From: Candidatus Saccharimonadota bacterium
Lineage (GTDB): Bacteria; Patescibacteriota; Saccharimonadia; Saccharimonadales; UBA10212
Assembly (NCBI GenBank): GCA_013815775.1
Contig: JACDFN010000004.1
Coordinates: forward strand, 1-51,610
Length of the DNA stretch: 51,610 nucleotides
Direction of reading: 5' to 3'
Shown here: positions 30,974-32,664 of the stretch, one piece after another
Position numbering within the stretch: position 1 is the first letter of the stretch
Layout: each line of letters begins with the position of its first letter
Notes under the pieces: model-generated
What the model was told of the DNA's origin: nothing
Databases searched by the model: none
What the model saw: the letters and a program-made list of their open reading frames with translations, nothing else
Position numbers and translations under genes: made by a program

Positions 30974-31033
30974 ATACAATCTCCTCTAATTAGCATGATT
31001 TAAATGAGTTTTCGTCCGTCTCACACGGTCGAG

Positions 31034-31060
31034 CTAGCACTCATAATACCCGAGTGCCAA
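31034..31060 (-). promoter_or_regulatory. CIRCE operator (HrcA binding site)
   Basis: CTAGCACTC-N9-GAGTGCCAA versus the consensus TTAGCACTC-N9-GAGTGCTAA, located about 60 nt upstream of groES. Confidence 0.85.
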
Positions 31061-31072
31061 AACGGCTGTCAA
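31043..31072 (-). promoter_or_regulatory. groESL promoter TTGACA-18 nt-TATTAT overlapping CIRCE
   Basis: On the minus strand, -35 is at 31072-31067 and -10 is at 31048-31043. Confidence 0.65.
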
Positions 31073-31129
31073 TAGAAAATTTTGCCTGTTTACTCTGTTT
31101 ATGCTCATGCTTGCAAAAGATAAATAATA

Positions 31130-31157
31130 TTGACTGAAATAAATTTGGGTTTATAAT
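31130..31157 (+). promoter_or_regulatory. Promoter TTGACT-16 nt-TATAAT driving the GC-rich unit
   Basis: -35 at 31130-31135 and -10 at 31152-31157. It is divergent from the groES promoter. Confidence 0.6.
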
Positions 31158-31197
31158 TTATATTAGTCAGGTCAGTCACCGATCCTAGGAGGGTGTT

Positions 31198-31620
31198 TTG
31201 ACAGATGTACCGTCTCGCCAAACCGTGGCCGTGCAGTTTGGACCGACTGAGGGGCATACCCCGATGGTCTGTATTGCACAAGGGAAATCCGAAGAGCTGC
31301 CGCCAAACCTGCGGCACGAACTCTGCGAGCACCTTGCCTATCACCTGCAAAGGATGGCCGAGGTAATCGAGGATACTCCGTACCACGGCAAGAAGCACCC
31401 GCGCACCTTCGCGATCATCAAGTTTGCTCCGGGGGTAAGGGCCCACGAGGCCCTCAAGACCGTAAGACGTGTCGTTGCGTGGTTCTTCGAGAATCTGGCA
31501 CCTAGCGCCCACAGACGCACCGCCCGATACATGAAGAAGCTCCACAAGAAGGAGCAGAAGGAACGGCGGTCCACAGGACGCGCTCACTGCCGAGAGCGAA
31601 AGTTTGCTTTCGCCAGGTGA
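31198..31620 (+). CDS. Hypothetical protein (140 aa ORFan with a very basic C-terminal tail), compositionally foreign
   Basis: AGGAGG at 31187-31192, 5 nt before TTG 31198. Third codon positions are G/C-rich. Lys codons are AAG x10 and AAA x1. A codon-aligned antisense shadow ORF is present. No family recognised. Confidence 0.6.
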   Translation: MTDVPSRQTVAVQFGPTEGHTPMVCIAQGKSEELPPNLRHELCEHLAYHLQRMAEVIEDTPYHGKKHPRTFAIIKFAPGVRAHEALKTVRRVVAWFFENLAPSAHRRTARYMKKLHKKEQKERRSTGRAHCRERKFAFAR

Positions 31621-31808
31621 GACGGAAATTCGGGCCCAGAGCCCGATCCCAACTAGGGTCTACCGAAGGAGGTTAATAAGAAAAAGCTAAGGGGTGTCTC
31701 CGGACAACTGAAGCTGCCAGCAACACGCGCTGAGTAAATCCCGTCAAAGTTTTCGGAAATAACCTACCGGATATCGGACAACTAGACTACTACACACAGA
31801 CCTGACTA

Positions 31809-31850
31809 GCCGCGTGCCCCCTCCGGGGGCCGCGGCGCTTTACTTTTTTA
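31809..31850 (+). terminator. Rho-independent terminator
   Basis: GCCGCG(T)GCCCCC-loop-GGGGGCCGCGGC forms a 12 bp G/C stem with one bulge, followed by GCTTTACTTTTTT. Confidence 0.8.
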
Positions 31851-31869
31851 GGCTGATATACTGGCGTCA

Positions 31870-32664
31870 ATGCCTAAAACTGTACTAATGTGTCCGCCAA
31901 CTTATTTCGACATCGAGTACGAAATCAATCCCTGGATGCATCAAGAGGACCAACCGACTAGTGAATCCGCGAGTGAACAGTGGCGTAAGCTTTATAATAT
32001 TTACACTCAAAGATTAGGTTGGCACGTTGAGCTCGCCGAACCAGTTAAGGGCTTGCCGGATATGGTTTTTGCGACCGATTGTTCTTTGGTGATTGACGAT
32101 AGAGTTATGCTTAGTAGCTTTCTATATAAAGAGCGCCAGCCCGAAACCGCTTATTTTGAAGCATGGTTCAAAGATCATGGTTATAAAAATTTGGCTAAAG
32201 CTAAGAATTTTTTTGAAGGTGGAGGGGACACCCTGCTTTTTGGCGATAAAATCATCGCCGGATATGGTTTTCGCTCCTCCTTAGAGTCTCACGATGAACT
32301 AAGGGAGTATTTTAGCCGAGAAGTTGTATCGCTACGTATTATAGACCCCAATTTTTATCATTTAGATACCTCCCTAACTGTCCTTTCTGACAATTCGGTA
32401 GCCTATTATCCAGGGGCAATTGATGAAGACAGCCAGCAGCGCCTGCGCGCAGCCGTACCCCACCTAATTGAAGCTACCTTAGACGAAGCTAGAGGTTTTG
32501 GGCTCAACGCAACAAGTGATGGGAAAACAATTATATGTAGCGATGAATCTAAAACTCTGCTTCAAAAATATAAAGACGCCGGCTTTGAAGTCATAGGGAC
32601 ACCCATCTTAGAGTTCAGAAAGTCCGGCGGAGGAGTTAAGTGCCTCACCCTAGAGCTCCGCTAG
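31870..32664 (+). CDS. Amidinotransferase/DDAH-family guanidino-group-modifying enzyme
   Basis: N-terminal VLMCPPTYFDIEYEINPWM and C-terminal GGGVKCLTLEL (catalytic Cys context) are typical of this superfamily. At 264 aa it is too short for ArcA. Confidence 0.75.
   Translation: MPKTVLMCPPTYFDIEYEINPWMHQEDQPTSESASEQWRKLYNIYTQRLGWHVELAEPVKGLPDMVFATDCSLVIDDRVMLSSFLYKERQPETAYFEAWFKDHGYKNLAKAKNFFEGGGDTLLFGDKIIAGYGFRSSLESHDELREYFSREVVSLRIIDPNFYHLDTSLTVLSDNSVAYYPGAIDEDSQQRLRAAVPHLIEATLDEARGFGLNATSDGKTIICSDESKTLLQKYKDAGFEVIGTPILEFRKSGGGVKCLTLELR

What the first reader, a model, noticed from the sequence alone, without database searches (positions are those of the whole stretch)
31130..31858. G+C-rich, codon-usage-foreign ORFan transcription unit wedged between the groESL promoter and an amidinotransferase gene
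From about 31165 to 31850 the sequence changes from the AT-rich local background to visibly G+C-rich DNA, and the segment looks like a complete unit.

Parts of the unit:
- a TTGACT-16 nt-TATAAT promoter (31130-31157), divergent from the CIRCE-controlled groES promoter about 60 bp away
- AGGAGG (31187-31192), 5 nt before a TTG start at 31198
- a 140-codon ORF
- about 190 nt of non-coding tail
- a 12 bp G/C hairpin plus T-tract terminator (31809-31850)

The ORF looks genuinely coding rather than a by-product of G+C richness:
- By my hand count, roughly two thirds of third codon positions are G/C.
- Lys is AAG ten times and AAA once, whereas neighbours such as rpsT favour AAA.
- The long antisense ORF 31105..31587 is exactly codon-aligned with it, the classic shadow of a GC3-rich gene.

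The product has a His-rich core (HELCEHLAYHLQRMAEVIEDTPYHGKKHPRTFAIIKFAPG) and a very basic tail (RRTARYMKKLHKKEQKERRSTGRAHCRERKFAFAR). It matches no family I recognise. A faint HicB/UPF0150-like pattern (MVCIAQGKSEE) is too weak to call.

My best reading is a recently acquired gene from a higher-GC donor. If this is an episymbiotic Saccharibacteria-type organism, its actinobacterial host is an obvious candidate. Together with the structured tail, it could also be a protein-plus-RNA module of unknown function.
Basis: partly seen in the sequence, partly recalled or inferred. Interest (0 to 1): 0.75.

Follow-up and report, generated by a model that had tools for sequence, protein, structure and literature searches.

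The report
GC-rich small-protein gene with end-paired mRNA
The G+C-rich segment is a real, old, fast-evolving small basic-protein gene found only in Saccharibacteria, always next to groES; its odd composition is a conserved trait tied to a tightly folded mRNA whose two ends pair, not a sign of recent gene transfer.

Summary
The 140-codon TTG ORF (31198-31620) is truly coding. It belongs to an unnamed family of 135-159 aa proteins (24 clusters at 50% identity, metagenomes only). dN/dS is 0.23-0.44, and AlphaFold gives a confident model (pLDDT 92) with no relative in Pfam, NCBIfam, PHROGs, PDB or BFVD.

"Recent acquisition from a high-GC donor" is not supported. In all 13 member loci where the upstream flank is readable the gene lies divergent from groES. 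In 11 of the 12 where the downstream flank is readable, the DDAH/ADI-like gene follows. Members down to about 26% identity all keep GC3 above their neighbours (0.69-0.82 against 0.34-0.61 in 10 loci; 0.59 in L041). Nothing related was found in plasmids, phages or viral contigs.

The new result is constraint at the RNA level. The first 7-10 nt of the predicted transcript pair with the 3'UTR just before the terminator, with covariation across units. The Shine-Dalgarno site is often masked by the 3'UTR. Coding regions fold better than synonymous shuffles. Synonymous codons are conserved where those of the neighbouring genes are saturated.

Best reading: a resident lineage-specific gene whose mRNA is built as a closed, stable, translation-gated panhandle, comparable to hbs and icaR. 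The protein's function is unknown; nucleic-acid binding is a guess.

The parts
31111..31118 (+). Conserved TTGCAAAA motif about 12 nt upstream of the -35 hexamer. It could be an UP element or a regulator site; its role is unknown.
   Evidence: Conserved in the upstream alignment of the window, L001, L035, L033, L031, L032 and L036. Also seen in L005 and in L004 unit 1.
31130..31157 (+). Sigma-70-type promoter TTGACT-16-TATAAT, divergent from the groES promoter.
   Evidence: Matches 11 of 12 consensus positions. A promoter-like site is conserved at the same position in relatives.
31164..31173 (+). 5' box UAGUCAGGUC at the predicted +1 of the transcript. It is the 5' strand of the long-range closing helix.
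   Evidence: A perfect 10-bp complement of 31799-31808. P(paired) is at least 0.9 in the partition function. Covariation across 9 units.
31181..31193 (+). 5'UTR segment that includes the Shine-Dalgarno AGGAGG (31187-31192). It is predicted to pair with the 3'UTR at 31648-31660.
   Evidence: MFE and partition function, P about 0.99 for 31181-31188 and 31191-31193. Equivalent SD masking by the 3'UTR is predicted in L029, L004, L037 and L038.
31198..31620 (+). TTG-initiated 140-codon gene for a small basic protein (pI 10.2). The model shows a beta-beta-alpha-beta-beta-alpha domain followed by a 37-residue Arg/Lys-rich C-terminal helix.
   Evidence: Family of 24 representative proteins found by HMMER. 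dN/dS 0.23-0.44. AF2 pLDDT 91.8. GC3 0.69.
31630..31646 (+). G/C hairpin directly after the stop codon (UCGGGC-CCAGA-GCCCGA).
   Evidence: Present in the MFE structure. L001 has CGGAC/GUCCG at the same place, a compensatory change. An equivalent G/C hairpin follows the stop codon in L029, L004, L033, L037, L038, L039 and L005.
31648..31660 (+). C-rich 3'UTR segment (CCCAACUAGGGUC) predicted to pair with the SD region.
31799..31808 (+). 3' box GACCUGACUA, the 3' strand of the closing helix. It abuts the terminator.
31809..31850 (+). Intrinsic terminator: GCCGCG(U)GCCCCC-UCC-GGGGGCCGCGGC followed by a T-rich tract.
   Evidence: Read directly from the sequence. The same GCCGCG...CGCGGC stem base recurs in the homologous units.

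Best explanation
This is a resident, vertically inherited, monocistronic gene of a Saccharibacteria lineage. It encodes a fast-evolving small basic protein: a two-layer alpha/beta domain followed by a long Arg/Lys-rich helix.

Its G+C richness is not a mark of foreign origin. It is a maintained property of the mRNA:
- Third codon positions are kept G/C and are conserved.
- The coding region folds unusually tightly.
- The first 7-10 nt of the transcript anneal to the 3'UTR right next to the terminator.
- In most members the Shine-Dalgarno region is also paired, either with the 3'UTR or in a local hairpin.
- The start codon is always TTG or GTG.

The most likely mechanism, which is inferred, is this. 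The transcript forms a closed panhandle with both ends buried. That would protect it from 5'-end-dependent and 3'-exonucleolytic decay and keep translation initiation low or conditional. Protein output would then be set after transcription.

The protein's own role is not established. My best guess is nucleic-acid binding through the basic helix, possibly to its own RNA or to the ribosome.

Shown: the coding status, the synteny, the conserved GC3 offset, the conservation of synonymous sites, and the predicted, covarying 5'-3' helix. Inferred: the consequences for stability and translation, and the protein's function.
For: Coding:
- Codon-position mismatches between the window and L001 are 49/38/74.
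- dN/dS is 0.23-0.44 in 7 pairs.
- A profile search found 24 representative proteins of 135-159 aa, matched over most or all of their length.
- Distant members match only in the sense frame.
- The AF2 model has pLDDT 91.8 and pTM 0.73.

Resident, not imported:
- The upstream flank is readable in 13 of the 15 fetched member loci, and all 13 have groES divergent. L001 shows only the conserved promoter region, L036 only the CIRCE, and L038 has no groES match in its 1.5 kb of upstream flank.
- 11 of the 12 loci with a readable downstream flank also have the DDAH/ADI-like gene downstream, two of them after a second small unit. L041 does not.
- GC3 is 0.69-0.82 against 0.34-0.61 for the neighbouring genes in 10 loci, and it rises with local genome GC.
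- No relative in plasmids, phages or IMG/VR.

RNA-level constraint:
- A 5'-3' helix at the predicted +1 and next to the terminator in the window, L001, L029, L004, L033, L037 and L039, with different sequences in each. L038 uses a shifted register.
- In 9 units, 74% of cells are paired against 61.5 +/- 2.8 in shuffles (0 of 500). 9 of 12 pairs change on both sides. Slid controls give 13-38%.
- Duplex energy beats shuffled 3' segments in 6 of 10 units.
- Coding regions fold better than synonymous shuffles: z -1.1 to -3.9 in 8 loci, against -0.13 +/- 0.86 for 14 control genes.
- At conserved amino-acid sites the same codon is used 60-62% of the time against 41-43% expected (z about 4). For the same genome pairs, amid and groES are saturated (z 0.8).
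- The consensus fold of the window/L001/L035 coding regions has z -3.7.

Precedents for 5'/3'-UTR pairing that controls decay or translation: hbs (PMC5737220) and icaR (PMC3868564).
Against: - No expression data. The transcription start and the 3' end are predicted only.
- The helix alignment was registered by hand on the predicted CAG/CUG core, which favours pairing.
- The L031/L032/L036 subgroup has only a weak 5-7 bp version, and L041 has none.
- No common coding-region structure is detectable across the whole family. The constraint therefore looks like 'fold tightly' rather than one fixed architecture.
- Low divergence at synonymous sites could be partly compositional, although controls for that.
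- The protein's function rests only on its charge and its fold class.
Confidence: 0.6

Rival explanations
1. Recent horizontal acquisition from a higher-GC donor, such as the actinobacterial host. On this view the composition is an unameliorated foreign signature.
For: The gene is the only GC3 outlier among 50 ORFs in the window. Codon choice is G/C-ending. Presence is patchy: only 1 of 20 syntenic GTDB representative loci carries a recognisable member.
Against: Members as divergent as 26-37% identity occupy the same slot next to groES. All members keep a GC3 offset that scales with their own genome's GC. No homologue was found outside this family in 1.84 billion representative proteins, and none in plasmids, phages or viral contigs. 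The promoter, 5'UTR and terminator are conserved along with the gene.
Confidence: 0.03
2. A bifunctional RNA. The compact G+C-rich panhandle RNA would have a function of its own, for example as a scaffold, a regulator, or the partner of its own basic protein in an RNA-protein particle. The ORF would be a second and less constrained function.
For: Synonymous sites are more conserved, and non-synonymous sites less conserved, than in the neighbouring genes. The UTR frame (5' box, post-stop hairpin, 3' box, terminator) is retained in units whose ORFs are no longer recognisably homologous: L005, L008, L033 orf2 and L004 unit 1. Folding energy is about -0.40 to -0.49 kcal/mol per nt.
Against: No Rfam family matches. 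No shared internal structure is found across the family. All the RNA features seen are also expected for plain control of mRNA stability and translation.
Confidence: 0.15
3. High GC3 is a by-product of a local evolutionary process, such as GC-biased gene conversion at a recombination hot spot or repeated cassette replacement. On this view it has no RNA-level function and the end pairing is incidental.
For: The groES-amid spacer is a variable slot, 130 to 2180 nt long, bare in 4 genomes and holding different G+C-rich ORFs in others. The protein evolves fast.
Against: The flanking genes a few hundred nt away have normal GC3. The 5'-3' helix shows compensatory changes and G-U pairs at a fixed position relative to the promoter and the terminator. 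Coding regions fold better than synonymous shuffles that keep GC3 unchanged.
Confidence: 0.12
4. A pure ncRNA, with the ORF a chance by-product of G+C richness.
For: End-to-end pairing, a terminator and a z-score of -4.4 for the whole transcript. Long ORFs also exist on the antisense strand.
Against: dN/dS is below 1 and the third codon position varies most. Protein-level homology persists where nucleotide similarity is gone. The SD and the start codon are conserved. The AF2 model is confident.
Confidence: 0.03
5. The 9-10 bp inverted repeats are DNA-level elements: the terminal inverted repeats of a small mobile cassette, or the recombination sites of an invertible switch placed between a fixed promoter and a fixed terminator.
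For: Perfect 10-bp inverted repeats bracket a segment of about 645 bp (31164-31808). Different ORFs sit in the same promoter/terminator frame in different genomes.
Against: All 15 fetched member loci have the same orientation. Several arms keep complementarity only through G-U (G-T) pairs. The pairing continues into SD/anti-SD contacts, which make sense only in RNA. No recombinase gene is adjacent.
Confidence: 0.05

Closest known systems
Bacillus subtilis hbs mRNA (5'/3'-UTR interaction; Braun, Durand & Condon 2017, PMC5737220)
   Same: A monocistronic mRNA for a small basic protein with a strong SD. A long-range helix of about 10-14 bp joins the 5'UTR and the 3'UTR. In hbs this helix modulates RNase Y cleavage and RNase J1 entry, and so links stability to translation initiation.
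   Different: In the present unit the helix involves the very first nucleotides of the predicted transcript and abuts the terminator. The coding region itself is GC3-enriched and over-folded. The start codon is TTG or GTG. The protein is unrelated to HU. Nothing has been tested experimentally.
Staphylococcus aureus icaR mRNA (3'UTR anti-SD UCCCCUG; Ruiz de los Mozos et al. 2013, PMC3868564)
   Same: A C-rich 3'UTR segment pairs with the SD region of the same mRNA. In icaR this blocks initiation and creates an RNase III substrate. SD/3'UTR pairing is predicted here in the window, L029, L004, L037 and L038.
   Different: The anti-SD contact is not universal in the family: L001, L039 and L041 mask the SD locally. 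It comes together with a separate helix that closes the ends. Cleavage by RNase III is unknown.
Processing stems of rRNA precursors and closing helices of stable RNAs (RNase P RNA, 6S RNA, tmRNA). This comparison rests on established knowledge, not on a tool result.
   Same: The 5' and 3' ends are brought together in a helix. The molecule is G+C-rich relative to an A+T-rich genome. The secondary structure is dense.
   Different: This RNA carries a conserved, translated ORF. No Rfam model matches. The internal structure is not conserved across the family.
Ferredoxin-like / RRM-like two-layer alpha/beta sandwiches (e.g. ribosomal protein S6 and its circular permutants)
   Same: Four antiparallel strands are packed against two helices. 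The order beta-beta-alpha-beta-beta-alpha equals a circular permutation of beta-alpha-beta-beta-alpha-beta. The weak Foldseek matches include S6 permutants, the GyrA/ParC alpha/beta sub-domain and the C-Ala domain.
   Different: No match is significant (best E 0.03, TM at most 0.42 normalised to the query). There is no sequence relationship. The long basic C-terminal helix has no counterpart in these folds.

Membership tests
mRNAs controlled by intramolecular 5'UTR-3'UTR pairing (hbs / icaR type) | Long-range base pairing between the 5'UTR and the 3'UTR of the same transcript | tested here: met
   Predicted with P>=0.9 in the window, L001, L029, L004, L033 (both units), L037, L038 and L039. 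Covariation: 0 of 500 shuffles reach the observed score. This is computational only. The pairing is weak or absent in L031, L032, L036 and L041.
mRNAs controlled by intramolecular 5'UTR-3'UTR pairing (hbs / icaR type) | The pairing overlaps the SD or an RNase entry site and changes translation or decay | not testable with these tools
   Overlap with the SD is predicted in 5 units. Its effect on translation or decay needs experiments.
Recently acquired genomic islet (horizontal transfer) | Absent from, or differently placed in, related genomes; homologues present in a plausible donor | tested here: not met
   Same slot beside groES in all 13 member loci with a readable upstream flank. No homologues outside the family. 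None in plasmids, phages or viral contigs.
Recently acquired genomic islet (horizontal transfer) | Atypical composition relative to the host genome | tested here: met
   GC3 is 0.69 against 0.32-0.51 for the other ORFs. The same offset is kept in all relatives, so composition alone says nothing about how recent the gene is.
Described structured ncRNA families (Rfam 15) | A match to a covariance model | tested here: not met
   No match in 31000-31950 even at E<=10. Only two tRNAs are found in the whole window.
   No hit for any of 25 members at E<=0.1. There is no HicB among the Foldseek matches.
Invertible DNA switch / TIR-bounded mobile cassette | Both orientations or empty sites observed; a recombinase nearby; the two arms identical at the DNA level | tested here: not met
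   A single orientation in all 15 fetched member loci. No recombinase among the neighbouring genes. The arms of L004, L033fam, L037 and L031 are complementary at some positions only through G-U pairs.
New protein family defined here (alignment A3) | End-to-end similarity, 135-159 aa, with the motifs DVPS / GPxxG / LPxxLR / P(R/Y)(R/H)GK / EAL / WFFxxLxP and a basic tail | tested here: met
   The window protein scores 3e-80 against the profile and carries all of the motifs.

The most novel reading that the evidence does not exclude
The unit may be one of a class of 'structure-first' coding RNAs that is specific to Saccharibacteria. In this reading the compact, end-paired, G+C-rich RNA is the primary object of selection. 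The UTR frame and the synonymous sites are conserved while the protein drifts beyond recognition. The encoded Arg-rich protein would work together with its own RNA, either in autogenous binding or packaging as an RNA-protein particle, or even as a message meant to be stable and translatable outside the producing cell, in the G+C-rich actinobacterial host. The G/C-ending codons and the TTG/GTG start codons loosely resemble usage in such hosts.
Probability: 0.1. Interest if true: 0.9.

Novelty: new variant of a known kind. Interest (0 to 1): 0.66.

Why it matters
Compositional outliers are routinely read as horizontal transfer. Here an extreme GC3 outlier is an old resident gene whose composition is held in place by selection on the mRNA, so it is a clean counter-example.

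It also provides what is, as far as I could find, the first comparative (covariation-based) case of a bacterial mRNA whose extreme 5' end pairs with its 3'UTR next to the terminator. The case spans many lineages of an uncultivated phylum. The known examples (hbs, icaR) are single genes studied in model Firmicutes.

If the mechanism holds, it would show how reduced-genome episymbionts tune the stability and translation of a message without dedicated regulators.

It also defines an unannotated protein family with a confident new-looking fold, and a variable gene slot next to groESL.

Tried and rejected
- **Known structured RNA.** My first idea was a large structured ncRNA (RNase P, tmRNA, ROOL/GOLLD-like). 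I rejected it: no Rfam or ARAGORN hit, and the evidence for coding is clear.
- **Antisense ORF as the real gene.** Rejected. It matches relatives less well than the sense frame and not at all in distant members, and it has no SD.
- **Alternative +2 frame ORF.** This is the ATG at 31205 (53 aa), also open in L001. Rejected because the codon-position pattern does not fit that frame.
- **Search of GTDB genomes with family peptide patterns.** No hit. The patterns were too narrow, because L004 is a member and was missed.
- **First metagenome scan with the 25-sequence alignment.** It failed for lack of a conserved stretch. A 5-sequence subset found 2 loci.
- **Homology of the other G+C-rich ORFs in the slot to the family.** Nothing by blastp or hmmsearch. 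hhalign gave only short collinear motif matches for L004 unit 1 and L033 orf2, and nothing for L005 and L008. AF2 of the L005 protein was of low confidence (pLDDT 61), but its secondary-structure elements fall at similar positions. I count this as inconclusive.
- **Protein function by similarity.** Pfam, NCBIfam, PHROGs, PDB sequences, Foldseek against PDB and Foldseek against BFVD all gave nothing significant. PADLOC was not run.
- **Literature.** I found no paper on this family or on GC3-rich resident genes in Saccharibacteria.
- **Adding L039 to the helix alignment.** MAFFT shifted the row, so L039 is reported separately.
Full report
**1.

- The segment 31163-31850 has a GC content of 0.56-0.61, against about 0.38-0.47 on either side.
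- The promoter TTGACT-16-TATAAT at 31130-31157 matches 11 of 12 consensus positions. It lies 58 bp from the divergent groES promoter, which is followed by a CIRCE-like inverted repeat.
- AGGAGG (31187-31192) is followed after 5 nt by TTG at 31198. The ORF runs to the TGA at 31618-31620 and is 140 aa long.
- About 190 nt downstream there is a 12-bp G/C hairpin (31809-31836) followed by a T-rich tract.
- GC3 is 0.69 and Lys is AAG 10 / AAA 1.
- The other 49 ORFs of 90 aa or more in the window have GC3 0.32-0.51. The gene is therefore the only outlier in 51 kb.
- The antisense ORF 31105..31587 is in codon register with the sense ORF.

**2. I first suspected a large structured RNA**

- The whole transcript folds with z = -4.4. 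Its first 10 nt (UAGUCAGGUC, 31164-31173) are the exact complement of GACCUGACUA (31799-31808), which lies directly in front of the terminator.
- Rfam gives no match, even at E<=10, and ARAGORN finds only two tRNAs in the window.

**3. The ORF is nevertheless coding**

- The closest relative is on Logan contig L001, at 48-50% aa identity and in the same genomic setting. Differences from it fall 49/38/74 on codon positions 1/2/3.
- A GTDB Saccharibacteria MAG (L004) encodes a 36-37% identical protein although blastn finds no nucleotide similarity.
- A full HMMER scan of 1.84 billion representative proteins with a two-sequence profile found 24 proteins, all 135-159 aa and matched over most or all of their length.
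- Their alignment shows shared motifs: DVPS, GPxxG, LPxxLR, P(R/Y)(R/H)GK, EAL, WFFxxLxP and an Arg/Lys-rich tail.
- dN/dS is 0.23-0.44 in seven pairs.
- Distant members match only in the sense frame, so the antisense ORF is a shadow.
- AlphaFold2 on the 25-sequence alignment gives pLDDT 91.8 and pTM 0.73. The order of elements is beta-beta-alpha-beta-beta-alpha, followed by a 37-residue basic helix. This order equals a circularly permuted ferredoxin-like sandwich (inference).
- Pfam, NCBIfam, PHROGs, PDB sequences, Foldseek against PDB (best E 0.03, query-normalised TM at most 0.42) and Foldseek against BFVD give nothing significant.
- The protein is basic: pI 10.2, with 15 K+R in the last 38 residues.

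**4. It is not a recent import**

- I could read the surroundings of members from ten 50%-identity clusters, in 15 fetched loci besides the window (14 distinct, since L029/L030, L033/L034 and L039/L040 are near-identical pairs).
- Where the upstream flank is readable (13 loci), the gene always lies divergent from groES-groEL. The exceptions are not counter-examples. L001 shows only the conserved promoter region and L036 only the CIRCE. L038 has no groES match in its 1.5 kb of upstream flank and shows a different ORF there.
- Where the downstream flank is readable (12 loci), the DDAH/ADI-like amidinotransferase gene follows in 11, in two of them after a second small unit. The exception is L041, the most divergent locus.
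- GC3 of the family gene is 0.69-0.82 in ten loci, where groES, groEL and the amidinotransferase gene have 0.34-0.61. L041 is lower, at 0.59 against a locus GC of 0.43. GC3 rises with the local genome GC.
- The protein diverges much faster than its neighbours: 28-61% identity where GroES is 72-91% and the amidinotransferase 66-86%.
- There are no relatives in PLSDB plasmids, GenBank phages or IMG/VR.
- A compositional offset that survives divergence down to 26% identity is a maintained trait, not a signature that has yet to ameliorate.

**5. Evidence for constraint at the RNA level**

(a) End pairing.
- In the window, L001, L029, L004, L033, L037 and L039, the 7-10 nt that begin 5-9 nt after the -10 hexamer (that is, at the predicted +1) pair with the segment directly in front of the terminator. 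P is at least 0.9 in the partition function. L038 uses a shifted register.
- The paired sequences differ between loci: UAGUCAGGUC/GACCUGACUA, UAUCCAGUC/GACUGGAUA, GUUCAGACCA/UGGUCUGAAC, and UAGUCCAGU/ACUGGAUUA with one G-U pair. In L039 the helix is flipped: UAUCUGG/CCAGAUA.
- I aligned nine units by hand on the helix core. 74% of cells pair, against 61.5 +/- 2.8 in shuffles (0 of 500). 9 of 12 pairs change on both sides. The 7-bp core pairs in 61 of 63 cells. Slid controls pair at 13-38%. Registering the alignment on the helix core biases it towards pairing, but the flanking covariation is not forced by that choice.
- Duplex energies beat composition-matched shuffles of the 3' segment at p<0.05 in 6 of 10 units.
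- The L031/L032/L036 subgroup has only a weak version, and L041 has none.

(b) Masking of the SD.
- In the window, 31181-31188 and 31191-31193 pair with 31653-31660 and 31648-31650 of the 3'UTR.
- Equivalent contacts between the SD and the 3'UTR are predicted in L029, L004, L037 and L038. In L001, L039 and L041 the SD is masked by a local hairpin.

(c) The coding region.
- It folds better than versions with the synonymous codons permuted, which keep the protein sequence and GC3 unchanged. z is -1.1 to -3.9 in 8 loci (mean -2.1), against -0.13 +/- 0.86 for 14 control genes of the window.
- The consensus fold of the window, L001 and L035 coding regions has z = -3.7 against codon-column shuffles. 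No common structure emerges across all nine.

(d) Synonymous sites.
- For the same genome pairs, the proportion of synonymous differences (pS) is 0.44-0.62 in the family gene and 0.61-0.92 in groES and the amidinotransferase gene. The non-synonymous proportion (pN) runs the other way.
- With codon usage controlled, identical amino acids use the same codon 60-62% of the time against 41-43% expected (z about 4) for window-L001 and window-L035. The neighbouring genes are saturated (z 0.8).

(e) Start codon.
- All 12 distinct family members whose start I examined begin with TTG (10) or GTG (2), after a strong SD.

**6. The slot and the frame**

- Among 20 GTDB loci with groESL-amidinotransferase synteny, the spacer measures 130-2180 nt. 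It is bare in L012, L018, L024 and L028, and G+C-rich in L003, L004, L005, L008 and L011.
- L005, L008, L004 unit 1 and L033 orf2 share the window unit's frame: promoter, 5' box at +1, strong SD, GTG or TTG start, GC3 0.74-0.84, a G/C hairpin after the stop codon, a 3' box, and in most a terminator built on GCCGCG...CGCGGC. The orf2 units of L031 and L032 also have their own promoter, a strong SD, a GTG or TTG start and high GC3.
- The ORFs of these units are not recognisably related to the family.
- An AF2 model of the L005 protein has low confidence (pLDDT 61). It nevertheless places strands and helices at nearly the same residues as the family model.
- The simplest reading is a single hyper-divergent superfamily in which the RNA frame is better conserved than the protein. 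This is suggestive, not shown.

**7. Mechanism**

- Known precedents exist. In B. subtilis hbs mRNA a 14-bp 5'/3'-UTR interaction modulates RNase Y cleavage and couples stability to initiation (PMC5737220). In S. aureus icaR mRNA a 3'UTR anti-SD motif blocks initiation and creates an RNase III substrate (PMC3868564).
- By analogy, I propose that this transcript forms a closed panhandle. The buried 5' end and the terminator would protect it from exonucleases. The G/C-rich, tightly folded body would offer few single-stranded A/U-rich sites for endonucleases. The masked SD and the weak start codon would keep translation low or conditional.
- These functional consequences are inferred. None has been tested.
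- The protein is probably a binding protein rather than an enzyme, because no polar residues that look catalytic are conserved. Nucleic-acid binding through the basic helix is a guess.

**8. Rivals**

- Recent horizontal transfer and pure ncRNA are each about 3% likely on this evidence.
- A bifunctional RNA with a role of its own (about 15%) and a local recombination or biased-gene-conversion by-product (about 12%) remain open.
- DNA-level inverted repeats of a cassette or an invertible switch are unlikely (about 5%). All 15 fetched loci have one orientation, several arms need G-U pairs, and the pairing extends to the SD.

**9. Verdict**

The 'foreign gene' interpretation is not supported. The 'protein plus RNA' idea is partly supported, in a different form.
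- What is there is a new, unannotated protein family specific to Saccharibacteria. Its mRNA shows an unusually strong, comparatively supported case of 5'-3' end pairing and synonymous-site constraint. That makes it a new variant of a known kind of post-transcriptional control.
- Interest is moderately high. The result overturns the default reading of a compositional outlier and yields a directly testable RNA mechanism in an uncultivated lineage. The biology of the protein remains unknown.

Noticed in passing
L003-L028, between groES and the amidinotransferase gene (e.g. L012:3820-4000, L007:1822-4000): The spacer between the divergent groES and the DDAH/ADI-like gene is a variable slot, 130-2180 nt long in 20 syntenic Saccharibacteria genomes. 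It is bare in L012, L018, L024 and L028, and G+C-rich (0.60-0.70 against a locus GC of about 0.50) in L003, L004, L005, L008 and L011.
   Followed up: partly
L005:440-1070 (ORF = P0029); L008:3320-4000; L004:2730-3300; L033:2360-2899; L031:2090-2560: Other small units share the same frame: a promoter, a 5' box at +1, a strong SD, a GTG or TTG start, GC3 0.74-0.84, a post-stop G/C hairpin, a 3' box (e.g. L005 UUCCAGUC/GACUGGAA) and in most a GCCGCG..CGCGGC terminator. For L031/L032 orf2 only the promoter, SD, start codon and GC3 were checked. Their ORFs are not recognisably homologous to the family. A low-confidence AF2 model of P0029 places its secondary-structure elements at the same residues as the family model.
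   Followed up: partly
L003:3250-3890 and L011:3240-3870, minus strand (approximate): G+C-rich ORFs of about 210 aa (GC3 0.73-0.76) lie on the groES strand in the same slot. They are unrelated to the family by blastp.
   Followed up: no
window 31111-31118: A TTGCAAAA motif about 12 nt upstream of the -35 hexamer is conserved in most units (window, L001, L035, L033, L031/32/36, L005, L004 unit 1). It could be an UP element, a regulator site or a second -35.
   Followed up: no
window 31667-31672, 31701-31709 and 31775-31783: The window's 3'UTR holds a second SD-like AGGAGG with no start codon after it. It also holds a 9-nt direct repeat, CGGACAACT, in two copies. This middle part of the tail is absent from the shorter 3'UTRs of L029 and L004.
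   Followed up: no
window 31198; L001:127; L029:2128; L031:1536; L033:1783; L004:3426; L037, L038, L039:3001; L041:1236: All 12 distinct family genes examined, and all six other small units in the slot, start with TTG or GTG and never with ATG, always after a strong SD.
   Followed up: partly
L041:1199-1831: The most divergent member examined (P0013) still lies divergent from groES, but it is followed by an unrelated minus-strand gene. Its GC3 is only 0.59, it has no 5'-3' pairing, and its SD and start codon sit in a local hairpin.
   Followed up: partly
window 31205-31366 (+2 frame) and L001:134-298: A second ORF, ATG-initiated and 53-54 codons long, overlaps the start of the gene and is open in both the window and L001. 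The codon-position pattern does not support it as coding. The nucleotides around the start (GTTTTGACNGATGTACCGTCT) are conserved almost completely.
   Followed up: partly
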